Shown: positions 7,290 through 60,317 of the stretch, piece after piece | How positions within the stretch are numbered: the stretch's first letter is position 1 | How the letters are laid out: each line of letters begins with the position of its first letter | Assembly (NCBI RefSeq): GCF_022846255.1 | Contig: NZ_AP025682.1 | Strand: one strand, 5' to 3' | Length of the DNA: 64,000 nt | From: Escherichia coli | GTDB taxonomy: Bacteria > Pseudomonadota > Gammaproteobacteria > Enterobacterales > Enterobacteriaceae | Notes under the pieces: model-generated | The model's database searches: none | What the model was told of the DNA's origin: nothing | Seen by the model: only the letters and a program-made list of their open reading frames with translations | Translations under genes and position numbers: made by a program

Positions 7290-8831
7290 ATGGCTTTTGC
7301 CTCATTAATTGAACGCCAGCGCATTCGCCTGCTGCTGGCGTTATTATTCGGTGCCTGCGGAACGCTGGCCTTCTCTCCTTACGATGTCTGGCCTGCGGCG
7401 ATTATTTCGCTGATGGGGCTTCAGGCGCTGACCTTTAACCGCCGTCCACTCCAGTCTGCCGCTATTGGCTTTTGCTGGGGATTTGGTCTCTTTGGCAGCG
7501 GTATTAACTGGGTCTATGTCAGCATCGCGACCTTTGGCGGAATGCCTGGCCCGGTTAACATCTTCCTGGTGGTACTGCTGGCGGCGTATTTGTCGCTGTA
7601 TACCGGACTGTTTGCTGGCGTGCTGTCGCGTCTGTGGCCGAAAACCACCTGGCTGCGCGTGGCGATTGCCGCTCCTGCTCTCTGGCAAGTGACCGAGTTT
7701 CTGCGCGGTTGGGTGCTGACTGGCTTCCCGTGGTTACAGTTCGGCTATAGCCAGATTGATGGCCCGTTAAAAGGGCTGGCACCGCTAATGGGCGTGGAAG
7801 CCATTAACTTCCTGCTTATGATGGTTAGCGGCCTGCTGGCACTGGCGTTAGTCAAACGCAACTGGCGTCCGCTGGTGGTGGCCGTCGTGCTGTTTGCCCT
7901 ACCCTTCCCGCTGCGTTACATCCAGTGGTTTACCCCGCAACCGGAGAAAACCATTCAGGTTTCGATGGTTCAGGGCGATATTCCGCAATCGCTGAAATGG
8001 GACGAAGGCCAGCTTCTTAATACGCTGAAGATTTACTACAACGCAACGGCACCGCTGATGGGCAAATCATCGTTGATTATCTGGCCGGAGTCGGCGATAA
8101 CCGATCTGGAAATTAATCAGCAACCGTTCCTCAAAGCTCTGGACGGTGAGTTGCGCGATAAAGGTAGCTCGCTGGTCACCGGGATTGTCGACGCGCGTCT
8201 CAATAAGCAGAACCGCTACGATACCTACAACACCATCATCACACTGGGTAAAGGTGCACCGTACAGCTACGAATCAGCCGATCGCTATAACAAAAACCAT
8301 CTGGTGCCGTTTGGCGAGTTTGTCCCGCTCGAGTCGATTCTGCGTCCGTTAGCACCGTTCTTTGATCTGCCGATGTCGTCGTTCAGCCGTGGGCCATATA
8401 TCCAGCCGCCGCTGTCGGTAAATGGTATTGAGCTTACTGCGGCTATTTGCTACGAGATCATTCTCGGCGAGCAAGTGCGCGATAACTTCCGCCCGGATAC
8501 CGACTATCTGCTGACTATCTCCAACGATGCGTGGTTTGGTAAGTCTATTGGTCCATGGCAGCACTTCCAGATGGCGCGAATGCGTGCGTTGGAGCTGGCG
8601 CGCCCATTGCTGCGTAGCACCAACAACGGTATTACGGCGGTGATTGGCCCGCAGGGTGAGATTCAGGCAATGATCCCGCAGTTCACCCGCGAAGTGTTGA
8701 CCACTAACGTGACGCCGACCACCGGACTCACACCGTACGCACGTACCGGCAACTGGCCGCTGTGGGTACTGACGGCATTGTTTGGTTTTGCCGCCGTGTT
8801 GATGAGTCTGCGTCAACGACGTAAACGTTGA
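7290..8831 (+). CDS. lnt: apolipoprotein N-acyltransferase
   Basis: 513-aa translation, N-terminal multi-TM region plus C-terminal CN-hydrolase domain; recognised as Lnt. Confidence 0.95.
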
Positions 8832-8935
8832 TGTGAATGATGCGCTGGCCTGCATAATTGCATCAATTTTGCAGGCCAGATAAACCGTTAACACCGCATC
8901 CGGTATCAACAAAACGTACTTTCTCATTGAGCTGT

Positions 8936-8963
8936 GGGGCGTGATTATCATGCCCCTTTTTTC
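8936..8963 (+). terminator. candidate terminator after lnt
   Basis: ggggc-gtgattatcat-gcccc followed by tttttt; the minus-strand 625-aa gene stop codon (8964-8966) abuts the T-run. Confidence 0.45.
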
Positions 8964-10841
8964 TTACGGTTCAGGGATACAAGCCACATTGCCATATTGG
9001 GGATGCCGAATAATTGCCTGCGGATCAAGCGAGCGCGTCCTGTCCAGTTGGATTAACCCGTTCTTCGCCATAACAAATATCTTTCTACCATCCGCTGAAA
9101 AACGAAGGTGATTAACGTAGCTGGCAGGATAAACGCCAATAATCTGCCCGGCATTAATATTGAGCAGGATGACATAACCTTGCAGGCCATATGACACCAA
9201 CGCTAAATATTGACCGTCCGGGCTAATACCCTCAACGGAATAAACGCTCCTGCTACACCATTGCGTCATAATGCTGGCTTGTTGATCCCCTACGCTTATA
9301 CGTGAAATCCCCTGGCTATCGGCAAAAATAATCTCGCCATTTTTTGGTCGGAATCCCATCGCAGAAACGACACCACGCGCATCACCTGTGGGAAAGTCTT
9401 CTTTCTGATGCGTGATGGTATTGATGCGTACAATGTCGCCTCTGACCATACCGGGTATCAACAATGTTTTTTCATCCGGGGAAAGTGCCATAACCCAGGC
9501 GCCTGGTTTACCGCTCGTCCCCGTCCCGTCGTATTTCTCCAGCGGGATATCCGCCACATGCTGATAAGTCACCAGATCAATGGCTGACACACTATTACTG
9601 GTGCGATTCATCACCCAGGCTTTTGTGCCATCACGCGAGAGGATAAGACTGTCAGGATGTGCACCGGTGGTAATCGACTGAATAATCTCCCCCGTCGCCA
9701 CGTTAATGACCGATAACGCATTCGCTTCAAATGAAGTTGCATAAAGCAACGTTTCATCCGGGCTTAACGCCAGCGATCTGACGCCCTGATCTTTACAGCC
9801 ACCACAATGTTTGAGTGACTTTTCTTTCGCTATGGGCGCTGTAAAGGTATGCAGGATTTTCTTTTGTCCGAGGTCGAAAACAACAATACTGTTGGTGTTT
9901 TCAATTGCGGCATATAACGTATTACCATCCCGATTGATCGCCATATCATGGATATCGGCAATCTCAGCGAGTAAATCACCACTGGCCTGCTCACGACTTA
10001 CCGGAGCGGATAATGTTTCCGTGAGGGCGTTGCGCTCCTCCACTAACTGCTGCTTTTTTTGTCGTCGCTCTTGTTCAATCTCCTGCGGATAAAACTCTTC
10101 ACGCAGGCTTTGCCTGACCTGTAAAACTGATTCATCAATCTGCTGCTGCACAAGCCAGATAGCCCCGGTCAGAAGAAGAGTGACCGCAACAATAATTCCG
10201 CCTTCCGTAACGAATCGGTTTTGCCCAACTAAACGCGCGCTCAGCCAACCCAACGCACCACCCGCAATCAGGCCGCCAATGTGGCAAGCGTTATCTATTC
10301 CTGTTTGCCGGGCACCGTACAACAGTGTCAGCGCCACCATACCCAACAGAGGAAATACTCGCCGCTGGTTTTTATGGTGTGTGCCCGCACCTAAAGCAAG
10401 CTGTGTTGCTATCGCAGCGCCAGCTATTCCCATAATCGCCCCGGATGCCCCAACGCTGATGACTATCTGCTCACTTTCGCGTAACGCATAACAGGCACTG
10501 ATTAGCCCACCAAAGACGCCAGAGAATAGCCAGACAATCAGGAGTCGCCATTTCCCCAGTATCCGCTCCGCCACTGCCCCCACCACCAGAAGTGCAAACA
10601 TATTCATCAGCAAATGGGGAAAACTACTGTGCAGAAAGACACTGCTCAATAAGCGCCAGGATTCATCCGACAACGTGAGAGAAGCAACGTTAGCGCCGAG
10701 ATGGATGAGTGCGGATTGATCGACTTCTTCGTAACTCATCCATTGTGCGAGGTAACAAAATATCCCAACACAGAACGCAAAAAGGATCAGGGTTATTGCG
10801 GGTAATTGAACATTTAACGGCTTAACCGAAGATGCAGACAT
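8964..10841 (-). CDS. rhomboid-family intramembrane serine protease (6+1 TM) fused to a C-terminal seven-bladed YVTN-type beta-propeller
   Basis: 625-aa ORF. Rhomboid motifs read in the translation: L1 WR (WRLLSSVF), TM2 LHSSFPHLLMNMF, catalytic GASG (VGASGAIMG), catalytic His (ACHIGGLIAGG), extra 7th helix GGIIVAVTLLLTGAIWLV, charged linker EQERRQKKQQLVEERNAL, then seven SPDG/SRDG-like blade repeats. Confidence 0.8.
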   Translation of the reverse strand: MSASSVKPLNVQLPAITLILFAFCVGIFCYLAQWMSYEEVDQSALIHLGANVASLTLSDESWRLLSSVFLHSSFPHLLMNMFALLVVGAVAERILGKWRLLIVWLFSGVFGGLISACYALRESEQIVISVGASGAIMGIAGAAIATQLALGAGTHHKNQRRVFPLLGMVALTLLYGARQTGIDNACHIGGLIAGGALGWLSARLVGQNRFVTEGGIIVAVTLLLTGAIWLVQQQIDESVLQVRQSLREEFYPQEIEQERRQKKQQLVEERNALTETLSAPVSREQASGDLLAEIADIHDMAINRDGNTLYAAIENTNSIVVFDLGQKKILHTFTAPIAKEKSLKHCGGCKDQGVRSLALSPDETLLYATSFEANALSVINVATGEIIQSITTGAHPDSLILSRDGTKAWVMNRTSNSVSAIDLVTYQHVADIPLEKYDGTGTSGKPGAWVMALSPDEKTLLIPGMVRGDIVRINTITHQKEDFPTGDARGVVSAMGFRPKNGEIIFADSQGISRISVGDQQASIMTQWCSRSVYSVEGISPDGQYLALVSYGLQGYVILLNINAGQIIGVYPASYVNHLRFSADGRKIFVMAKNGLIQLDRTRSLDPQAIIRHPQYGNVACIPEP

Positions 10842-10998
10842 AAGGTGTTTCTTCCTTGAAAAGACAGGTAAAAAGCATTTTTCCCGTGTGCAGTTATCAT
10901 CCCGGCAAACGTCCCATGCCGAAAAGATAACTCTGTCCGAAATATGACTTTTTCAGCCTAAAATTACAATCGTAATTAATTCACCCCTAAGTATTTTT

Positions 10999-11014
10999 TG
11001 GCATGTAAGTTGCT
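10999..11014 (+). promoter_or_regulatory. candidate sigma54 (-24/-12) promoter upstream of gltI
   Basis: TGGCAT-gtaag-TTGCT; GG at 11000-11001 and GC at 11012-11013 with exact 10-nt spacing; about 280 nt upstream of the gltI start. Confidence 0.35.
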
Positions 11015-11295
11015 TTATTTACTGTGTAAGCAATGAAATCAGCCGCAACGCAACCGGGTTGCACCACCACAAATCAGCGGTAGCACCAAAAAGGTGCGGT
11101 TTAAGAATTTTGCTTCGGAATGGTGCGGCGCATCTCGCAAAAACAAACAATAAAACAGCAATATCTTTACATTTAGTCAAACTAAATGTTACCTAACAGG
11201 CACAACACTGCACAATAAAGTTGCAGACGATAACAACACAAACACTCACAACGGGTATCCATGCGTTCTTAACGCAGAAGATAAAGGAGTTGGAT

Positions 11296-12204
11296 ATGCA
11301 ATTACGTAAACCTGCCACAGCAATCCTGGCCCTGGCGCTTTCCGCAGGACTGGCACAGGCAGATGACGCCGCCCCGGCAGCAGGCAGCACGCTGGACAAA
11401 ATCGCCAAAAACGGCGTGATTGTCGTCGGTCACCGTGAATCTTCAGTACCTTTCTCTTATTACGACAATCAGCAAAAAGTGGTGGGCTACTCGCAGGATT
11501 ACTCCAACGCCATTGTTGAAGCAGTGAAAAAGAAACTCAACAAACCAGACTTACAGGTGAAATTGATTCCGATCACCTCACAAAACCGTATTCCACTGCT
11601 GCAAAACGGCACTTTCGATTTTGAATGCGGTTCTACCACCAACAATGCCGAACGCCAAAAACAGGCGGCTTTCTCTGACACTATTTTCGTGGTCGGTACG
11701 CGCCTGTTGACCAAAAAGGGTGGCGATATCAAAGATTTCGCCGATCTGAAAGGCAAAGCCGTAGTCGTCACTTCCGGCACTACCTCTGAAGTTTTGCTCA
11801 ACAAACTGAATGAAGAGCAAAAAATGAATATGCGAATTATCAGCGCCAAAGATCACGGTGACTCTTTCCGTACCCTGGAAAGCGGTCGTGCCGTTGCCTT
11901 TATGATGGATGATGCTCTGCTGGCTGGTGAACGTGCGAAAGCGAAGAAACCAGACAACTGGGAAATCGTCGGCAAGCCGCAGTCTCAGGAAGCCTACGGT
12001 TGCATGTTGCGTAAAGACGATCCGCAGTTCAAAAAGCTGATGGATGACACTATCGCTCAGGTGCAGACCTCCGGTGAAGCGGAAAAATGGTTTGATAAGT
12101 GGTTCAAAAATCCAATTCCGCCGAAAAACCTGAACATGAATTTCGAACTGTCGTACGAAATGAAAGCACTGTTCAAAGAACCGAATGACAAGGCACTGAA
12201 CTAA
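11296..12204 (+). CDS. gltI: glutamate/aspartate ABC transporter periplasmic binding protein
   Basis: ORF 11221..12204; start set at the Met of the signal peptide MQLRKPATAILALALSAGLAQA (ATG 11296, aaggag SD 7 nt upstream). Confidence 0.95.
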   Translation: MQLRKPATAILALALSAGLAQADDAAPAAGSTLDKIAKNGVIVVGHRESSVPFSYYDNQQKVVGYSQDYSNAIVEAVKKKLNKPDLQVKLIPITSQNRIPLLQNGTFDFECGSTTNNAERQKQAAFSDTIFVVGTRLLTKKGGDIKDFADLKGKAVVVTSGTTSEVLLNKLNEEQKMNMRIISAKDHGDSFRTLESGRAVAFMMDDALLAGERAKAKKPDNWEIVGKPQSQEAYGCMLRKDDPQFKKLMDDTIAQVQTSGEAEKWFDKWFKNPIPPKNLNMNFELSYEMKALFKEPNDKALN

Positions 12205-12205
12205 T

Positions 12206-12360
12206 TACAAGAACCAGGGGCGGAAATTCCAGCCCTCTCGATTGTTACGTAGCACGGACAGACTATACGCCTGGTGGTCGTTCCCCATCGGGCCTGAAAA
12301 CCGCAATACGCTGGGTAACAATCTTCGAGGGTAGCAGTTAACGCTGCTACCCTCTTTTTT
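12206..12360 (+). ncRNA. sroC: SroC sRNA (GcvB sponge) from the gltI-gltJ spacer
   Basis: Position between gltI stop and gltJ start; ends in hairpin gagggtagcag-ttaacg-ctgctaccctc plus tttttt (12327-12360); identity assigned from locus knowledge, not alignment. Confidence 0.5.
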
Positions 12361-12373
12361 CTGGAGTAGATTT

Positions 12374-17379: not shown

Positions 17380-18831
17380 TCAGCTAAACAACATCGCGAT
17401 TTTTCCGAGAGCATAACCTATCACCAGCACCGTTAAGCTGATTTTGATAATGCTGGTAATGCTCTGTGGTTTTTCATCCTCATCATTTTTTTCTTCGTGG
17501 TTTTCAGGTGTTGGCTCATCGACATCTTCATCCTCCGGCTCGAGTTTCACTTTCGTCAACAGCATCCGCGTGATAATGGCCTCTAATGGATGAGCATCTC
17601 CACCTTCCAGCCTTGTATTAAGACGGGCCAGCATCTCTTGTTTCGGGAACGCTTCCAGCACAACCTGTTCCGCTACCCGATACAAATCCAGTAACGGTGA
17701 ATCTTGTTCTGTCTCGCTACCGACTCTCGATTTCCACCATGCCCATGCTTTGCGCTTGAAGAATAACGACTCAATAAACGATTGACCTAACGGCGATAAT
17801 TTTCCGCTATGTAAAATTTCCGCCCATAACAGCCGCGTCCGGGCGCTCTCACCAGGAACATATTTCAACGGTTGACCTTGCGCATCTATCATGCTTCGCG
17901 CTTCGATAACCATCACTAATAACGCGAAATAATCCGGGCAATGACGCTTGCTCCACTGCAACAACAAATTATCAGCTTGTGTAGATGGGTAACTCTCCCG
18001 GTATGCGCAGAGATCGGCAAGCAGGCTTTCCCCCTCGCCACAGTACAACCGTTGCGCACACTGGTAATAACGGGCATCTTCGCTTTCTGGATTTTCTGCT
18101 TGCCACTGTTGGGCAACAGGAATAAGTTCCGCCATACCTGTTTTCACCGAGCTGTACCAGCGCAACAGTTTGCGATGTAACTTGACATCATCAGGAATGA
18201 ACCACGGACCTTCCATTGCCATAAACGCAGTGACATAGTCAGGATGGTAACGGCAGCAGCGTTCCAGCGCGAAGTAATACTCAACAGTCTGGTTCTGCAA
18301 CGCGACGGGATATTCCAGAAGGCTAAGGAAATCGAAACAATCACCAGCCTGAATGGCCTCAAGAAAAGCCTCCCTTTCTTCCTCATCCATTCCTTCGCTG
18401 TCATTAAACGAATGCCAGTTCAAACGCTCTGCTAGCAAAGAAGCACAATTTAATGAAAGATATCGCGCTTCTATAGCGACTGCACACAGCGGCCAGCGTA
18501 ATTGATCGACATCCTCCATGTTCCAGGTATTTAATTGCTGAATAAATTTCTGCCAGGCGGAGGGCTGAAAACGATCACTTTCAGAATCCAGTAATGCCCT
18601 GAATGCACGTAGTATTTCATGTTCAGCGGCGGCATCTTTTTCTTCATCATCTGCTTCCTCGACAGGATTTACCGCCAGTCGCAGCGCCTCTTCATAGGCC
18701 TGGCGTAATGCTTTAAACCCCTGCGGATCGGTTTCGGGATGACACAACGGTAAGCGAGCAAGATAAGCCTGGCGGATAATGTCTATTTGCGTCGTGCTTT
18801 CAATTTCGAGGATTTGCCAACATGTTTTCAT
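17380..18831 (-). CDS. djlC: J-domain co-chaperone of HscC, C-terminal membrane anchor
   Basis: 483 aa; N-terminal J-like region CWQILEIE...[20 protein letters not shown] (HPE rather than canonical HPD); C-terminal hydrophobic helix. Confidence 0.9.
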
Positions 18832-19535
18832 AGGTCGCTCACATCCTTAAGCGTTACCGGGCATTCAGGCTGGACAGTTAATGGCTGCCAGGGAAGCGTG
18901 GCATAGAAACGGTCGCTTCCCGCTGCCAGCTCTTCGAACATCCGACTCCCGGCGCTATCGTATTTGTACAGGGTTAGCGCCTCGCGTAGCGAAGCGTTGT
19001 CTTCGCACTGAGAAGATTGCCAGTAGAGACGCCCTAACGAATAGGCGGAAAAATAGTGCATCCAGCTGTGATAGTAATGGTGTGCTCGTATATAGACGCG
19101 CGATTGCAGCCATAAACTCTCGTCTTCCGTCAGCCACTTGTTGAGCACACCAACCCGTGATAAAAACCCCATCCGCACATAATCCCAGGCTTTGATTCCC
19201 CCTTCCCCACAACACATAGCGGTTTGGGCAACGAATTGGGTATAAATCAACCCTCTCTCCGAGCCGCCAGCAATTAATGCTTTCCACTCTTCAGGGGAAG
19301 AGCGATGCCATGTCAGATATAAGCCAGCTAAATCATTAGCATGACCATCATCGGTCATCTGATAAATAGTCTGAATTAAATCATCACGATTATTTATTCC
19401 CCAGGATGATGAGAGATCGAATTCTTTTATCCCGGTATACATTTTTGGCGAGTCATGCGCGGGCTTGCAACCCTGATTAAGTATTTCCATGGGCGTAGAA
19501 AGCGCAAAAAGAAGATATTGTTCTTCCTTATTCAT
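18828..19535 (-). CDS. ybeU: DUF1266-family protein
   Basis: 235 aa; paralogous to ybeR product; 4-nt ATGA overlap with djlC start. Confidence 0.85.
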
Positions 19536-19636
19536 TTGTTAATAATCCCTTATGTGCATTAACTGACTACTTTTTTATTATTGATGAGTATAAACTTGAC
19601 GCTTTCAAAATAAAAAGAAAATCGAAGCATTCACTC

Positions 19637-20191
19637 ATGAATAAAAAATTAATGTATATATTCGCAATATTTATAGTTGCAGCAATAACCTGTATTAGCC
19701 AACCCAAGAAAACGACGTTGCGTGATAAAGCCATGGCGAATTATGCCTTTGATTATTTAAGCTCACCGGGCAGTCTTCCATTCACCACGGCAGCCACGGA
19801 GCTTTCCGCGATTCATGGTCACTCAACGTCGCAATATCGCCTTGGAGAATTTTATCTTCATGGTAGCGACGGTAAACCACTGGATTATACACAGGCGAGA
19901 TACTGGTATGAGCAATCAGCGGAACAGGAAAATCCACGCGCGCAAAGTAAACTGGGGTGGATCTACCTCAAAGGTCTGGGGGTCAAACCCGATACCCGTA
20001 AAGCAATTCTCTGGTATAAGGAAGCAGCTGAACAAGGGTATGCTCATGCTCAATATACTTTAGGTTTGATCTACAGAAACGGCTCAGGTATTAATGTTAA
20101 CCATTATGAATCTCAAAAATGGTTAAAACTGGCCGCCAAACAACATTACAAAAACGCGGAAAGATTACTTGCCGGGCTTCCCGCACATTAA
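19637..20191 (+). CDS. ybeT: Sel1-like repeat protein with N-terminal signal/TM segment
   Basis: 184 aa; Sel1/TPR-like repeats (e.g. [39 protein letters not shown]). Confidence 0.85.
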
Positions 20192-20200
20192 CGTCGACTG

Positions 20201-21628
20201 TCACCCGAACAGATGGAGTATTTTCCCTATCAAACCGGCAAAGATAAAAATGTAGAAAATAATTTTGATGACGCCCAGGCAGCCCGGCCCACCATCGTCA
20301 ACGGGCATCGACTGCGGTTGCGGCTCCGGTTCGACGGTTTGCTTCTCGGTAAAATTTGCCGCCTGAATTAATAATCGACGAATCATTAATGCTTCCAGTG
20401 GACAACGATCTTCTGCATCAAGGCGGCTGACGATCGGCATTAATGATTCTTCTGTCGGTTGGCTGGCCTGAACTAATTGTTTAGCAACTAAATATAATGG
20501 CCATAAGGGATGTTCTGTATCACGCGTGAGTGAGATCCGCGGCTTACGTCCTTTGTGCAAAACCATCTCGACCAGAGAACGCCCCAGCGCAGAGAGTTTT
20601 TCATCACTGAGTATTTCGTATAAATGAAAACGCGTACGAGCGCTGTCACCAGGGACATAAAGTAGCGGTTTTCCCTGATCGTTAACCAGATCACGCGCTT
20701 CAATCATCATCACCACTAACGGGTAATAATCGACCCGATGCTGACGGCACCATTGCAACATTAAAGCATCCGCCTGGGTGGAGGGATACTCGCGCCAGTA
20801 GTCACAAAGTTCTGCCAGCAGGCTTTCGCCTTCTCCACAATAGACGCGTTGCGCGTATTCATAATAACGCGCATCTTCATTATCAGGTTCAGCTTCCTGC
20901 CACGACCGGGCGTAATCCAGAAGTTCGGGGATATCCAGACGGCTTGTGCTATACCAGCGGAGTAAATTTCTGTGCAAATTTGCATCATCGGGGATAATCA
21001 CTGCGCGATGTTGCGCTAAATACAATGTCAGCCATTCTGGATGCGATGACCAAATCCGAGCGAACATTTGGTAAAAATCAATGGTGTCATTTTGTACGGC
21101 AACGGGCAGATGCAGAATGGTCTGGAAGTTAAAAACATTCCCCTTCGCAATGGCATATAAAAAGGATTCCAGTTCTTCTTCGTCTATTTCCCCGACGTTT
21201 TCCTCCTGCAACCACCGCAATCTTTCTGCTAATAACACCACGCACTCGAAGGATAAATGGGCAGTGTTCATGGCTATTGTGCACAGCGACCAGCGTAATT
21301 CATCAATATCTTCCATCGAGCAATAATTTAATTGCTGAATGAATCGCTGCCAGGCAGAGGGCAGAAAACGTTCGCTATCAGAGGCGAGTAACGCACGAAA
21401 GGCGAGCAGAATTTCATGTTCTGCAACTTCATGTTCTTCTGGTTGCCAAACAGATTTAGCAGGCGACTGCGCAATCCGTAGCGCGTCCTCATACGCCTGA
21501 CGAAGTTGTTTAAAACCCTGCGGATCGGTTTCTGGATGAAAGGACGGTAACAGCGCCAGATAAGCGCGGCGGATAATATCGACGTCAGTCGTTTCCTCTA
21601 TTTCGAGAATCTTCCAGCAATTTTTCAT
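20201..21628 (-). CDS. djlB: J-domain protein, paralogue of DjlC
   Basis: 475 aa; N-terminus [39 protein letters not shown] parallels DjlC; C-terminal hydrophobic anchor. Confidence 0.9.
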
Positions 21629-22359
21629 AGGTCGCTCATATCCTTAAGCGTTTCCGGGCATGTGGGGTAGTCAGCCAGTGGTTGCCAGGGTAAGGTCGCG
21701 TAATATGCATCGTCACTGGCAAATAATTGATAAAACATATCATTGCCGGAATCGTCGTATTCTTTACGCGCTAAGAATTCACGTAATAAAGGCAGATCAT
21801 CATCCTCGGGAGACTGCCAATATTGCCGACCAAAGGTATAACCGGCAAAGTATTGCCGCCAGTTACTATAATAACGTAGAGCCCGTAGATGAATGCGCGA
21901 CTGGATCCACAGGCTTTCTTCTTCACTCAACCAGTTATTAAGTACGCCCATTCGGCTTAAAAAACCCATCCGGACATAATCCCAGGCTTTAATTCCTCCC
22001 TCACCACAGCATTCGGCGGTGCTGGCGACAAATTGCGCATAAGCCTGACCTTGCTCATTTAATTCAGCAAGATAGTCACGCCATTCACATGGCGAATAAC
22101 GAAACCAGCAGTGATAAAACCCTGCCAACCGCGCGGCATGACCGTTATCAATCATTCGGTAAATTGTGCGCAGCAGGTCATCACGGTCATCAATTCCCCA
22201 GGAGGAAGAAAGGTCAAAAAAGCGTGTACCTAAATACATTTTGGGGGACGAATGCGAAGGTAAACAGCATTCATTGCGTATTTCCATCGGAGTGGAAAGT
22301 GCAAACAATATTTTTTGCGACTCCATGTCCATATAATTCATCCTTAAATATTCATTCAA
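21625..22359 (-). CDS. ybeR: DUF1266-family protein
   Basis: 244 aa; paralogous to ybeU product; 4-nt overlap with djlB start. Confidence 0.85.
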
Positions 22360-22489
22360 TGAATATTAACCACGTTGCGAGGCTCATTTATTTATACTTT
22401 TCTGACGCAACATAATACGCATAAAATAAGGCTTACGCAAAAATGGAACACATAAAAATATAATATGTTTTATATGCAACCATAAGGAA

Positions 22490-23473
22490 ATGATAATGAT
22501 TTTTACGTCAAGTTGCTGCGATAATTTATCAATAGAAAAGATTGTTAAACGTGCTGAAAAAGGCGATAGCGAGGCTCAATATATTGTTGGGTTTTATTAT
22601 AATCGCGATAGCGCAATTGACTCTCCGGACGACGAAAAAGCCTTCTACTGGCTGAAGCTTGCCGCTGAACAAGGCCATTGTGAAGCACAATATTCCTTAG
22701 GGCGGAAATACTCCGAGGATAAAAGCCGTCATAAAGATAATGAGCAAGCTATCTTTTGGCTGAAAAAAGCTGCCCTACAAGGCCATACTTTCGCTTCCAA
22801 CGCCCTTGGCTGGATACTGGATCGTGGAGAAGACCCCAACTATAAAGAAGCGGTTGCCTGGTATCAGATAGCCGCGGAGAGCGGAATGCCTTATGCGCAA
22901 AATAATCTTGGATGGATGTACAGAAATGGCAACGGAGTCGCACAAGACTATGCGCTGGCATTTTTCTGGTACAAACAAGCTGCATTACAAGGCCATAGTT
23001 ACGCGCAAGACAACCTGGCCGATCTCTATAAAGACGGAGAAGGCGTTGCTCAAAACAAGACACTCGCCGCATTCTGGTATTTGAAAAGCGCACAGCAGGG
23101 TAATCGGCATGCCCAGTTTCAAATTGCATGGGATTATAACGCTGGCGAAGGGGTGGACCAGGACTATAAGCAAGCGATGTACTGGTATCTGAAGGCTGCC
23201 GCTCAGGAAAGCGTCGGCGCTTACGTCAACATCGGTTATATGTATAAACATGGACAAGGCGTTGAGAAAGATTATCAGGCCGCCTTTGAATGGTTTACGA
23301 AAGCCGCTGAATGCGATAATGCCACTGCCTGGTATAACCTTGCCATTATGTATCATTACGGAGAAGGAAGACCTGTCGATCTCCGACAGGCTCTCGATCT
23401 GTATCGTAAAGCTCAGTCATCCGGTACCAGGGATGTCAGTCAAAAAATCCGTGAGATTGAAGATTTACTGTAA
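22490..23473 (+). CDS. ybeQ: Sel1-like repeat protein
   Basis: 327 aa; about 8 tandem Sel1 repeats (AQYxLGxxYxxGxGVxQD pattern). Confidence 0.85.
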   Translation: MIMIFTSSCCDNLSIEKIVKRAEKGDSEAQYIVGFYYNRDSAIDSPDDEKAFYWLKLAAEQGHCEAQYSLGRKYSEDKSRHKDNEQAIFWLKKAALQGHTFASNALGWILDRGEDPNYKEAVAWYQIAAESGMPYAQNNLGWMYRNGNGVAQDYALAFFWYKQAALQGHSYAQDNLADLYKDGEGVAQNKTLAAFWYLKSAQQGNRHAQFQIAWDYNAGEGVDQDYKQAMYWYLKAAAQESVGAYVNIGYMYKHGQGVEKDYQAAFEWFTKAAECDNATAWYNLAIMYHYGEGRPVDLRQALDLYRKAQSSGTRDVSQKIREIEDLL

Positions 23474-59207: not shown

Positions 59208-59414
59208 AATATAATTCATGGGTGGTTGAAATACATCCTTGCTTTTCAACCATCCTAAAAACTCATGAATTGCTCGTAACCCACCTGACAGCTATGCTAT
59301 TTTAGATAAACTTAATCCAAAGTTAAGCAGAAAAACATAATACATATAAATACAACAGCAACACTATTGATCAAGTGAATGATTTCTGGAAGAGACAATA
59401 CAGCGGAGTATGTT

Positions 59415-60317
59415 ATGGCTAATCTTTATGATCTAAAAAAATTTGACCTCAATTTACTGGTCATATTTGAATGTATTTATCAACATCTCAGCATTAGTAA
59501 AGCGGCAGAATCATTATATATAACGCCCTCTGCTGTTAGTCAGTCGTTACAACGTTTACGTGCGCAATTTAATGACCCGTTATTCATTCGCTCTGGGAAA
59601 GGTATCGCGCCGACTACAACAGGGTTAAACCTGCATCACCATCTTGAGAAAAATCTCAGAGGCCTTGAACAAACGATCAATATCGTAAATAAGTCTGAAC
59701 TAAAGAAAAATTTTATTATCTACGGTCCTCAGCTTATTTCTTGTACTAATAACAACATGCTAATCCGCTGTCTTAGACAAGATACTTCAATCGATATAGA
59801 ATGCCATGACATCCTGCTTTCAGCTGAAAATGCCGAAGAACTGTTGGTTCAACGCAAAACTGACCTGGCAATTACGCTGCAACCAGTAATTAGTCGCTCT
59901 GTCATCTGCATGCCGTTACACACTATTCGCAATTCCCTTATATGTAGCAACAAACATCCTCGTATTACTGATACCAGTAACTATGAACAAATTATCGCCG
60001 AAGAATTCACCCTGTTGATATCTAAATCAGCAGGGATTGACGAAATTCAAATGGACATAGATGAACGTTTTATAAACCGTAAAGTTTCATTTCGCAGTTC
60101 TTCTTTGTTGACTATAATTAATAGCATTTCTGTTACTGACTTATTAGGCATTGTGCCCACCGAACTGTACGATTTACATCGTGATTTTTTGAAGTTAAAA
60201 GAAATAAAACTAGAACAACCTCTTCCTGCGGTTAAACTTTATATTTCCTATAACAAGGCTTCGTTGAACAACCTTGTCTTCTCCCGATTCATAGATCGTT
60301 TAAATGATAGCTTCTGA
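59415..60317 (+). CDS. ybdO: LysR-family transcriptional regulator
   Basis: ORF 59379..60317; start set at MANLYDLKKFDLNLLVIFECIYQHLSISKAAESLYITPSAVSQSLQRLR (LysR HTH); AT-rich gene. Confidence 0.85.
   Translation: MANLYDLKKFDLNLLVIFECIYQHLSISKAAESLYITPSAVSQSLQRLRAQFNDPLFIRSGKGIAPTTTGLNLHHHLEKNLRGLEQTINIVNKSELKKNFIIYGPQLISCTNNNMLIRCLRQDTSIDIECHDILLSAENAEELLVQRKTDLAITLQPVISRSVICMPLHTIRNSLICSNKHPRITDTSNYEQIIAEEFTLLISKSAGIDEIQMDIDERFINRKVSFRSSSLLTIINSISVTDLLGIVPTELYDLHRDFLKLKEIKLEQPLPAVKLYISYNKASLNNLVFSRFIDRLNDSF

What the first reader, a model, noticed from the sequence alone, without database searches (positions are those of the whole stretch)
8832..11295. Single-gene islet between lnt and gltI with atypical codon usage
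The stop codon of the rhomboid-propeller gene (8964-8966) sits directly against the T-run of the lnt terminator hairpin, and the gene is convergent with lnt and divergent from gltI, so roughly 1.9 kb of coding sequence occupies a spacer that would otherwise be about 0.6 kb. Its codons are enriched in ATA (three of five Ile in the GASGAIMGIAGAAIATQ stretch; many more across the gene) and AGA/AGG, which are rare in E. coli core genes. This suggests horizontal acquisition. From memory, K-12 carries an IS5 copy at this position, so the locus may be a recurrent insertion hot spot. No repeats, integrase or IS ends flank the gene.
Basis: partly seen in the sequence, partly recalled or inferred. Interest (0 to 1): 0.55.

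Follow-up and report, generated by a model that had tools for sequence, protein, structure and literature searches.

The report
Known rhomboid protease gene Rhom7
The gene between lnt and gltI is the E. coli copy of Rhom7, a membrane protease already studied in Shigella sonnei; it is an old, fast-evolving resident of this site that strains such as K-12 have lost, not a recent foreign insertion.

Summary
The sequence observations hold. A 625-aa ORF (8964-10841, minus strand) lies convergent with lnt and divergent from gltI. Its stop codon sits one base from the T-run of a hairpin terminator. It is rich in ATA and AGA/AGG codons, and no repeats or mobility genes flank it.

The interpretation of a horizontally acquired islet is not supported on the E. 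coli timescale.
- The gene is the orthologue of Shigella sonnei Rhom7 (SSON_0610), with the same catalytic Ser133/His187, a seventh TM helix and a periplasmic 7-bladed YVTN beta-propeller.
- It is present at this site in 3232 of 5426 complete E. coli genomes, including B2, B1 and E. coli B strains.
- It is also at this site in S. sonnei, in E. albertii, E. whittamii and Escherichia sp. MOD1-EC7003, in a strain labelled E. fergusonii, and at 49-57% protein identity in Klebsiella and another enterobacterial genus.
- Its synonymous divergence matches the flanks. GC and GC3 are native. Only codon adaptation is low (CAI 0.21), and dN/dS is about 0.2.
- The other 2186 genomes, including K-12 and O157:H7, share one "empty" haplotype in which about 100 bp replaces about 2.17 kb.
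- K-12's IS5 is a separate event, about 200 bp from the boundary.

This is a known gene with an ordinary presence/absence polymorphism, most likely caused by loss.

The parts
7290..8831 (+). lnt (apolipoprotein N-acyltransferase), 513 aa here. Its last codon lies inside the variable segment, and lnt is 512 aa in the gene-less haplotype.
   Evidence: ORF list; RefSeq annotation of matching loci; junction alignment.
8826..10996 (.). Presence/absence segment of about 2.17 kb. In 2186 E. coli genomes about 100 bp of unrelated hairpin plus REP sequence replaces it. The right edge is approximate (10996-10998).
   Evidence: BLAST of empty loci against the window; alignments; counts.
8845..8905 (.). 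Palindrome (8845-8860 / 8864-8879) overlapping a REP-like element (about 8869-8905). REP content here varies from 0 to 2 copies among strains and Escherichia species. On the minus strand the REP scores as a terminator-like hairpin for the rhomboid transcript (8912..8885).
   Evidence: Inverted repeat I4; terminator scan; left-junction alignment. The match to the REP consensus is my own reading from memory.
8936..8962 (+). Intrinsic-terminator hairpin plus T6 for the corC-lnt transcript, one base from the rhomboid stop codon. It is conserved in all Escherichia loci that carry the gene.
   Evidence: Terminator scan; sequence; alignment.
8964..10841 (-). rhom7 coding sequence, 625 aa: a rhomboid intramembrane serine protease with a C-terminal beta-propeller. 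The exact protein is WP_137501676.1 (E. coli).
10239..10664 (-). Rhomboid core (aa 60-201, Pfam PF01694). It contains H71/H76/N80 on TM2, the W62-R63 loop motif, Ser133 (10443-10445) in GASG and His187 (10281-10283).
   Evidence: Pfam E=2.8e-28; motif positions; invariance in a 17-sequence family alignment. The same residue numbers were shown to be catalytic in S. sonnei Rhom7 (PMC7232013).
10143..10217 (-). Seventh transmembrane helix (aa 209-233). It would place the C-terminal domain in the periplasm.
   Evidence: Hydropathy; AlphaFold2 helix 209-233. The topology is inferred, as also proposed in PMC7232013.
9984..10133 (-). Helical, charged linker (aa 237-286).
   Evidence: AlphaFold2 helices 237-250 and 253-272.
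8967..9977 (-). Seven-bladed YVTN-type beta-propeller (aa 289-625), with family-conserved cysteines (C529 nearly invariant, C621 invariant).
   Evidence: TIGR02276 YVTN repeats at 5e-16; PDB 1l0q at 1.2e-24 by sequence and top Foldseek hit; strands in the model; conserved Cys.
10842..10998 (-). 5' region of rhom7 with an unmapped promoter. It is conserved among Escherichia loci that carry the gene and absent from the empty haplotype.
   Evidence: Alignment. No sigma-70 consensus match was found here.
10999..11013 (+). TGGCAT-N5-TTGC, a sigma-54 type -24/-12 element at the right edge of the variable segment. It is conserved in filled and empty loci of Escherichia, Salmonella, Citrobacter and Klebsiella. 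It belongs to gltI control, not to the rhomboid gene.
   Evidence: Alignments. gltIJKL is listed as RpoN/NtrC-dependent (PMC4987338). Assigning this motif as the promoter is my inference.
11296..12204 (+). gltI (glutamate/aspartate binding protein), divergent from rhom7.

Best explanation
The ORF is the E. coli orthologue of Shigella sonnei Rhom7.

What the protein is:
- It is a 7-TM rhomboid intramembrane serine protease with a Ser133/His187 dyad.
- The seventh helix places a helical linker and a 7-bladed YVTN beta-propeller in the periplasm.
- By homology with the Shigella enzyme, it cleaves the transmembrane anchors of orphan subunits of respiratory complexes (HybA, FdnH), so that they can be degraded.
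- The propeller probably binds substrates or partners. It is not needed for catalysis itself.

How it evolved:
- The gene is an old resident of the lnt-gltI spacer in Enterobacteriaceae.
- It is weakly expressed or weakly constrained. This explains its rare codons, low CAI and dN/dS near 0.2, and why it evolves about three times faster than lnt at the protein level.
- Because it is dispensable it has been lost repeatedly: it is absent in Salmonella and C. freundii, and disrupted by a frameshift or by IS1 in some E. coli.
- In E. coli one old deletion/replacement haplotype, shared by K-12 and O157:H7, removed the end of lnt's last codon, the REP, the terminator, the gene and its promoter region.
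- K-12's IS5 inserted later, into the gltI control region of that empty haplotype.

Shown here: gene identity, domain make-up, conservation of position, haplotype counts and substitution rates. Inferred: the direction of the event (loss), the topology, the role of the propeller and low expression.
For: Identity:
- Pfam Rhomboid at 2.8e-28 plus beta-propeller families.
- GASG Ser133, His187 and HxxxxHxxxN at 71-80, invariant across 17 family members. These residue numbers equal the mutationally proven catalytic residues of SSON_0610/Rhom7 (PMC7232013).
- Proteins labelled S. sonnei are 92-93% identical and are encoded at the same gltI/lnt site.

Structure:
- The AlphaFold2 model has mean pLDDT 79.7. 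It shows 7 long helices, a helical linker and a propeller of many beta strands.
- The top PDB match is the YVTN propeller 1l0q. TIGR02276 YVTN repeats are present.

Old resident of the site:
- The arrangement gltLKJI | rhomboid | lnt-corC-ybeY-phoH-miaB is also found in K. aerogenes (49% aa), Klebsiella sp. RHBSTW-00484-like (52%) and an unnamed enterobacterium (57%; only lnt and the next downstream gene are visible on its 4.3-kb contig). It is also found in E. albertii, E. whittamii, Escherichia sp. MOD1-EC7003 and a strain labelled E. fergusonii.
- Rhom7 identity follows the flank identity in rank order.
- dS against Klebsiella is 2.3, against 1.0-1.9 for the flanks. The dN ratio of rhom7 to lnt is 3.1, similar to 1.9-3.5 within Escherichia.
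- Within E. coli, dS is 0.09-0.16, as for lnt (0.10-0.11) and gltI (0.06-0.16).

Distribution in E. coli:
- 3232 of 5426 complete genomes carry at least 80% of the gene. They include O25b:H4-ST131, O83:H1 NRG857C, BEN2908, O111 strains and E. coli B derivatives.
- 2186 genomes carry one shared empty-site sequence.

Other points:
- Base composition is native: GC z -0.34, GC3 z -0.69.
- There are no flanking repeats or mobility genes.
- Ongoing decay: a frameshifted copy and an IS1-split copy.
- IS5 is in a different place, with CTAA duplicated.
Against: - The empty haplotype has no statistically detectable remnant of the gene or its promoter. The best local match, 19 of 24 bases, was reached by 57 of 300 shuffles. 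The direction of the event therefore rests on comparison with other species, not on a scar.
- Salmonella and C. freundii are empty at this site, and the GTDB species-representative scan found the gene in few Enterobacteriaceae. Vertical descent therefore needs many independent losses.
- rhom7 dS between E. coli and E. albertii or E. whittamii (0.17-0.19) is lower than for the flanks (0.24-0.45). Some Escherichia-level sharing may therefore reflect recombination between species rather than independent retention.
- Codon adaptation is among the lowest in the window.
- Expression, substrates and topology were not tested for this strain.
- This allele carries Asp in place of a nearly invariant Gly59 in the L1 loop.
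Confidence: 0.85

Rival explanations
1. Recent horizontal acquisition. A foreign single-gene islet was inserted into a short lnt-gltI spacer in this E. coli lineage, at a site prone to insertions.
For: - The gene is variably present among E. coli.
- CAI is 0.213, the second lowest of 52 genes, and rare codons make up 5.6%.
- K-12 has IS5 in the same spacer.
- REP copy number varies beside lnt.
- Distant homologues (26-32%) occur in Betaproteobacteria and other Enterobacterales in unrelated contexts.
Against: - Orthologues sit at the same site in several Escherichia species and in Klebsiella.
- Synonymous divergence equals the flanks within E. coli and is saturated against Klebsiella.
- GC and GC3 are native.
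- There are no target duplications, inverted repeats, integrase or IS ends.
- The alleles in E. coli genomes are only 93.9-98.9% identical to this one at the nucleotide level, and gene dS among E. coli alleles matches the flanks. A recent sweep would give much lower diversity than this.
- Other long-resident genes in the same window have equally poor codon usage (17380-23473 and citR at 59379-60317).
Confidence: 0.04
2. Ancient acquisition plus continuing exchange. The gene entered an ancestor of Enterobacteriaceae or of Escherichia at this site. Since then both the filled and the empty haplotypes have moved between E. coli phylogroups and Escherichia species by homologous recombination through the conserved lnt and gltI flanks. 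Today's patchwork would then reflect allele exchange more than repeated deletion.
For: - A single empty haplotype is found in both phylogroup A (K-12) and E (O157:H7), while E. coli B (phylogroup A) carries the gene.
- rhom7 dS to E. albertii and E. whittamii is lower than flank dS.
- The B2 strain SF-173 shares its REP arrangement with E. albertii.
- The end of lnt is mosaic (RQRRKR, RARKR or RQRRK).
Against: - This is not really a rival for what the gene is. It differs only in the population mechanism.
- No recombination breakpoints were mapped, and phylogroups were assigned from strain names only.
Confidence: 0.1
3. The gene is a decaying relic with no function in this strain.
For: - dN/dS is 3-10 times higher than in the neighbouring genes.
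- Frameshifted and IS1-split copies exist in other strains.
- About 40% of E. coli genomes lack the gene.
- This allele carries the G59D change at a nearly invariant position.
Against: - The 625-codon ORF is intact.
- All catalytic and structural motifs are kept.
- dN/dS of 0.17-0.29 is well below 1 in both domains.
- Klebsiella orthologues are intact after saturating divergence.
- The S. sonnei orthologue is an active protease (PMC7232013).
Confidence: 0.03

Closest known systems
Rhom7 of Shigella sonnei (SSON_0610, UniProt Q3Z4D6; Liu et al., EMBO J 2020, PMC7232013)
   Same: - S. sonnei-labelled proteins are 92-93% identical.
- The catalytic residue numbers are the same (Ser133, His187).
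- Both have seven predicted TM helices plus a C-terminal domain.
- Both are encoded at the same gltI/lnt site.
   Different: - This is a different allele, with about 7% amino-acid differences that include G59D in the L1 loop.
- Activity and substrates were not tested in E. coli.
- The word 'propeller' does not occur in the paper's main text. The C-terminal domain is identified here as a YVTN 7-bladed propeller, which database annotations already say.
YqgP/GluP of Bacillus subtilis and the GluP-type rhomboids with a C-terminal TPR domain
   Same: - Both have a rhomboid core followed by a seventh TM helix and an extracytoplasmic repeat domain.
- The nearest non-propeller relatives of the rhomboid core in the database search are GluP-like TPR fusions.
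- Both are described as acting in membrane-protein quality control (PMC12615303).
   Different: - The C-terminal repeat domain here is a beta-propeller, not TPR.
- No N-terminal cytosolic domain is present.
- The reported substrates differ.
GlpG (E. coli, H. influenzae) and AarA (Providencia stuartii)
   Same: - They share the rhomboid fold and the Ser/His dyad.
- H. influenzae GlpG 2nr9 matches at 2.8e-9.
- The paper reports 30% identity between Rhom7 and AarA.
   Different: - GlpG has 6 TM helices with an N-terminal cytoplasmic domain and no periplasmic domain.
- The NCBIfam GlpG models score far below their cut-offs (38 against 250 bits).
YncE and archaeal S-layer YVTN beta-propellers (PDB 3vgz, 1l0q)
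   Same: The C-terminal domain has the same 7-bladed YVTN repeat architecture.
   Different: - Here the propeller is tethered to a membrane protease.
- The YncE equivalog model is not met (33 against 400 bits).

Membership tests
Rhomboid intramembrane serine proteases (MEROPS S54, Pfam PF01694) | Significant match to the rhomboid domain profile | tested here: met
   PF01694 at E=2.8e-28 over aa 60-201.
Rhomboid intramembrane serine proteases (MEROPS S54, Pfam PF01694) | Catalytic Ser in GxSG on TM4 and His on TM6; TM2 H/N motif; WR in loop L1 | tested here: met
   GASG Ser133, His187 and H71-x4-H76-x3-N80. S133, H187, H76, N80, W62 and R63 are invariant in the 17-sequence alignment.
Rhomboid intramembrane serine proteases (MEROPS S54, Pfam PF01694) | At least six transmembrane helices | tested here: met
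   Hydropathy segments and AlphaFold2 helices 15-34, 74-95, 97-121, 132-150, 155-178, 182-203 and 209-233.
Rhomboid intramembrane serine proteases (MEROPS S54, Pfam PF01694) | Intramembrane proteolytic activity | not testable with these tools
   Shown for the S. sonnei orthologue with S133A and H187A controls (PMC7232013).
Rhom7 orthologous group (S. sonnei SSON_0610) | High identity to the S. sonnei protein, with the same catalytic positions | tested here: met
   92-93% identity to proteins labelled Shigella sonnei. Ser133 and His187 match. The SSON_0610 sequence itself was not retrieved.
Rhom7 orthologous group (S. sonnei SSON_0610) | Same chromosomal position | tested here: met
   The S. 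sonnei contig L099 reads gltKJI | rhomboid | lnt-corC-ybeY.
Rhom7 orthologous group (S. sonnei SSON_0610) | Seventh TM helix plus C-terminal extracytoplasmic domain | tested here: met
   Periplasmic location is inferred.
Rhom7 orthologous group (S. sonnei SSON_0610) | Cleaves orphan HybA and FdnH | not testable with these tools
   Literature only (PMC7232013).
Horizontally acquired genomic islet | Mobility signatures: flanking direct repeats or att sites, integrase, IS ends | tested here: not met
   No bracketing repeats. No such ORFs.
Horizontally acquired genomic islet | Atypical base composition | tested here: not met
   GC 0.496 (z -0.34) and GC3 0.501 (z -0.69) against 52 genes in the window.
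Horizontally acquired genomic islet | Atypical codon usage | tested here: inconclusive
   CAI 0.213 (2nd lowest of 52) and 5.6% rare codons (7th highest). Long-resident, poorly expressed genes in the window have the same values.
Horizontally acquired genomic islet | Absent from the same site in sister species and genera | tested here: not met
   Present at the same site in E. albertii, E. whittamii, Escherichia sp. MOD1-EC7003, a strain labelled E. fergusonii, Klebsiella spp. and another genus.
Horizontally acquired genomic islet | Gene younger than its flanks (lower synonymous diversity) | tested here: not met
   dS within E. coli is 0.09-0.16 for the gene, 0.10-0.11 for lnt and 0.06-0.16 for gltI. 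Against Klebsiella it is 2.3, against 1.0-1.9 for the flanks.
YVTN-type 7-bladed beta-propeller | YVTN repeats and a propeller fold | tested here: met
   TIGR02276 at 58 bits against a 27.85-bit cut-off. 1l0q at 1.2e-24 by sequence and Foldseek rank 1 at 7e-18.

The most novel reading that the evidence does not exclude
The filled (Rhom7-plus) and empty haplotypes may be an old polymorphism that is maintained by selection rather than by neutral loss. Both haplotypes are internally diverse, both cross E. coli phylogroups, and the filled one crosses Escherichia species boundaries. Maintenance could reflect a trade-off tied to anaerobic respiratory-complex quality control in the gut. The fast-evolving periplasmic YVTN propeller could act as a substrate- or signal-sensing module that sets which orphan proteins are cleaved.
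Probability: 0.1. Interest if true: 0.45.

Novelty: already known. Interest (0 to 1): 0.15.

Why it matters
There is little new here. The gene is annotated in RefSeq as a rhomboid family intramembrane serine protease, and its Shigella orthologue has been characterised biochemically.

Three points are useful:
- This "islet" should not be counted as a horizontal-transfer event. Rare codons without a shift in GC are a poor indicator of foreign origin.
- E. coli K-12, the usual rhomboid model organism, lacks the second rhomboid that most E. coli carry.
- The role of the propeller domain of Rhom7 is still unknown and could be studied in common E. coli strains.

Tried and rejected
- Gene remnant in the empty haplotype. 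I made a local alignment of its unique sequence against window 8832-10996 on both strands. The best hit (19 of 24 bases at about 10894-10917) was matched or beaten by 57 of 300 shuffles, so I rejected it.
- Target-site duplications or terminal inverted repeats around the gene. I found only short chance matches.
- A sigma-70 promoter for the gene in 10842-10998. There was no consensus match, and the only hit in the region lies inside the ORF.
- Known RNA families in the spacers. The only match was sroC, downstream of gltI.
- Alignment of the empty spacers of E. coli, Salmonella and C. freundii. The part next to lnt consists of different REP arrangements and cannot be aligned, so it does not show which state is ancestral.
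- Clustering of amino-acid variation. Variation is spread over all domains, with only a mild peak at aa 446-510, and there is no clear hypervariable surface.
- IS5 as the cause of gene loss in K-12. I rejected this because other empty genomes lack IS5, and IS5 lies about 200 bp from the boundary with its own CTAA duplication.
- Biopython's built-in E. coli CAI table was not available, so I retyped the weights from memory.
- P0039 could not be located on any contig.
Full report
**What is there**

Window 8832-11295 is the spacer between lnt (7290-8831, +) and gltI (11296-12204, +). It holds one long ORF, 8964-10841 on the minus strand, of 625 aa.

Downstream of lnt lie three features:
- a palindrome at 8845-8879;
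- a REP-like element at about 8869-8905;
- a hairpin at 8936-8956 followed by T6 (8957-8962), one base from the ORF's stop codon at 8964-8966.

ATA codes 11 of 53 Ile and AGA/AGG 6 of 30 Arg, against 0-1 in the neighbouring genes. Three of the five Ile around the active-site GASG use ATA. CAI is 0.213, the second lowest of 52 genes, and rare codons make up 5.6% (7th highest). GC (0.496, z -0.34) and GC3 (0.501, z -0.69) are ordinary for the window. No repeats bracket the gene, and no integrase or transposase is present.

**What the gene is**

- Pfam finds a Rhomboid domain (aa 60-201, E=2.8e-28) followed by beta-propeller families.
- The rhomboid hallmarks are all present: H71-x4-H76-x3-N80, W62-R63, Ser133 in GASG and His187. 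They are invariant in an alignment of 17 family members whose identity to this protein goes down to 25%.
- The S. sonnei rhomboid Rhom7 (SSON_0610) was defined by predicted seven TM helices and catalytic Ser133 and His187. The S133A and H187A mutants are inactive (PMC7232013). The residue numbers are identical here.
- Proteins labelled S. sonnei are 92-93% identical and are encoded at the same gltI/lnt site.
- The exact protein of the window is on record as E. coli WP_137501676.1.
- An AlphaFold2 model (mean pLDDT 79.7) shows six core helices, a seventh helix (209-233), a helical linker (237-272) and a propeller made of many beta strands.
- The best PDB match by sequence (1.2e-24) and by fold is the YVTN 7-bladed propeller 1l0q. 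NCBIfam finds YVTN repeats.
[quoted passage not shown] It identified orphan HybA and FdnH as substrates (summary table in PMC12615303).

**Is it an inserted islet?**

Of 5426 complete E. coli genomes, 3232 carry at least 80% of the gene (3231 carry the whole interval). A further 2186 carry a single alternative "empty" sequence. Together these make 5417-5418 genomes.

Carriers include O25b:H4-ST131, O83:H1 NRG857C, BEN2908, O111 strains and E. coli B derivatives. K-12 and O157:H7 are empty.

Homology between the two haplotypes stops at 8825, just before lnt's last codon. As a result lnt is 513 aa in this window and 512 aa in the empty haplotype; among gene-carrying loci it is 513 or 512 aa. Homology resumes at about 10996, at a conserved TGGCAY-N5-TTGC element. 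In the empty haplotype about 100 bp of hairpin plus REP takes the place of about 2.17 kb. It contains no significant remnant of the gene.

**Evidence on polarity**

The gene occupies the same slot, gltLKJI | rhomboid | lnt-corC-ybeY-phoH-miaB, in these genomes:
- E. whittamii and Escherichia sp. MOD1-EC7003;
- E. albertii;
- a strain labelled E. fergusonii;
- Klebsiella aerogenes, at 49% protein identity;
- a K. oxytoca-complex strain, at 52%;
- a further enterobacterium, at 57%, where only lnt and the next downstream gene are visible on the 4.3-kb contig.

In the other genera Lnt is 83-85% identical and, where it is on the contig, GltI 88%. Synonymous divergence from Klebsiella is saturated for the gene (2.3), as for its neighbours (1.0-1.9). 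The dN ratio of rhom7 to lnt is 3.1, about the same as within Escherichia.

Within E. coli the gene's dS (0.09-0.16) equals that of lnt and gltI. The gene has therefore diverged together with its flanks. dN/dS is 0.17-0.29 in both domains, against 0.02-0.10 in the neighbours. This is purifying selection, but relaxed.

Salmonella and C. freundii are empty, with non-alignable REP arrays next to lnt. More distant homologues (26-32%) in Budvicia, Cedecea, Providencia and Betaproteobacteria lie in unrelated contexts.

The simplest reading is a long-resident, dispensable, fast-evolving gene that has been lost repeatedly. A frameshifted copy and an IS1-split copy show that decay continues.

**Caveats**

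- The direction of the E. coli event is inferred from outgroups and diversity, not from a deletion scar.
- Vertical descent requires many losses across the family.
- rhom7 dS to E. albertii and E. whittamii (0.17-0.19) is below that of the flanks (0.24-0.45). This points to some exchange between species through the conserved flanks.
- Phylogroups were judged from strain names only.

**K-12's IS5**

It sits in the empty haplotype with its own CTAA duplication, equivalent to window 11193-11196. That is about 200 bp to the right of the variable segment and about 100 bp upstream of gltI. Other empty genomes lack it. It is a separate, later event and did not cause the loss of the gene.

**Verdict**

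The observations are confirmed. The interpretation of horizontal acquisition and a recurrent insertion hot spot is only partly supported. The gene is variable and poorly codon-adapted, but it was not inserted on the E. coli timescale. The gene is already known as Rhom7.

Noticed in passing
window 10999-11013 and about 11060-11130: A TGGCAT-N5-TTGC element (sigma-54 -24/-12 type) marks the right edge of the variable segment. It is conserved in filled and empty loci of Escherichia, Salmonella, Citrobacter and Klebsiella. NtrC-like TGCACC...GGTGCA sites follow on the gltI side. gltIJKL is a known RpoN/NtrC operon, and an NtrC ChIP peak has been reported in this K-12 spacer. In K-12 the IS5 (CTAA at the equivalent of 11193-11196) separates these elements from gltI.
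   Followed up: partly
window 8840-8912: The REP/BIME content between lnt and the terminator varies. This window has one REP plus a palindrome. SF-173 and E. albertii have a different arrangement with the same spacing. Strains such as O111:H8 SF4-1 have none, and E. whittamii has a larger array. The lnt C-terminus varies with it (RQRRKR, RARKR, RTHKR or RQRRK).
   Followed up: partly
window 10665-10667 (codon 59 of the rhomboid gene): This allele, and its close relative in isolate AF3, has Asp where the family has a nearly invariant Gly in the L1-loop motif LTLxGExWRL. The effect on activity is unknown.
   Followed up: partly
L089 (E. albertii) and L007 (E. whittamii) compared with the window: Synonymous divergence of the rhomboid gene between Escherichia species (0.17-0.19) is lower than that of the flanking lnt and gltI (0.24-0.45). 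This suggests recombination of this segment between species.
   Followed up: partly
window 12200-12362: The sRNA sroC lies between gltI and gltJ, with a full-length Rfam match of 172.6 bits.
   Followed up: yes
window 17380-23473: A block of six genes has low GC (0.43-0.48), low CAI and many rare codons. From memory of the K-12 gene order they are probably the djlC/ybeU/ybeT/djlB/ybeR/ybeQ group. They look at least as 'foreign' by codon usage as the reported gene.
   Followed up: no
window 59379-60317: This LysR-type regulator gene has the most atypical composition in the window (GC 0.372, GC3 0.349, ATA 10 of 36 Ile). It matches the NCBIfam CitR repressor equivalog at 454 bits against a 400-bit cut-off. 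dsbG lies just upstream.
   Followed up: partly
L096 (E. coli EcPNK004) and hit H5 (E. coli DP051): Some strains carry inactivated copies of the rhomboid gene. One is annotated as frameshifted and one is split by IS1A.
   Followed up: no
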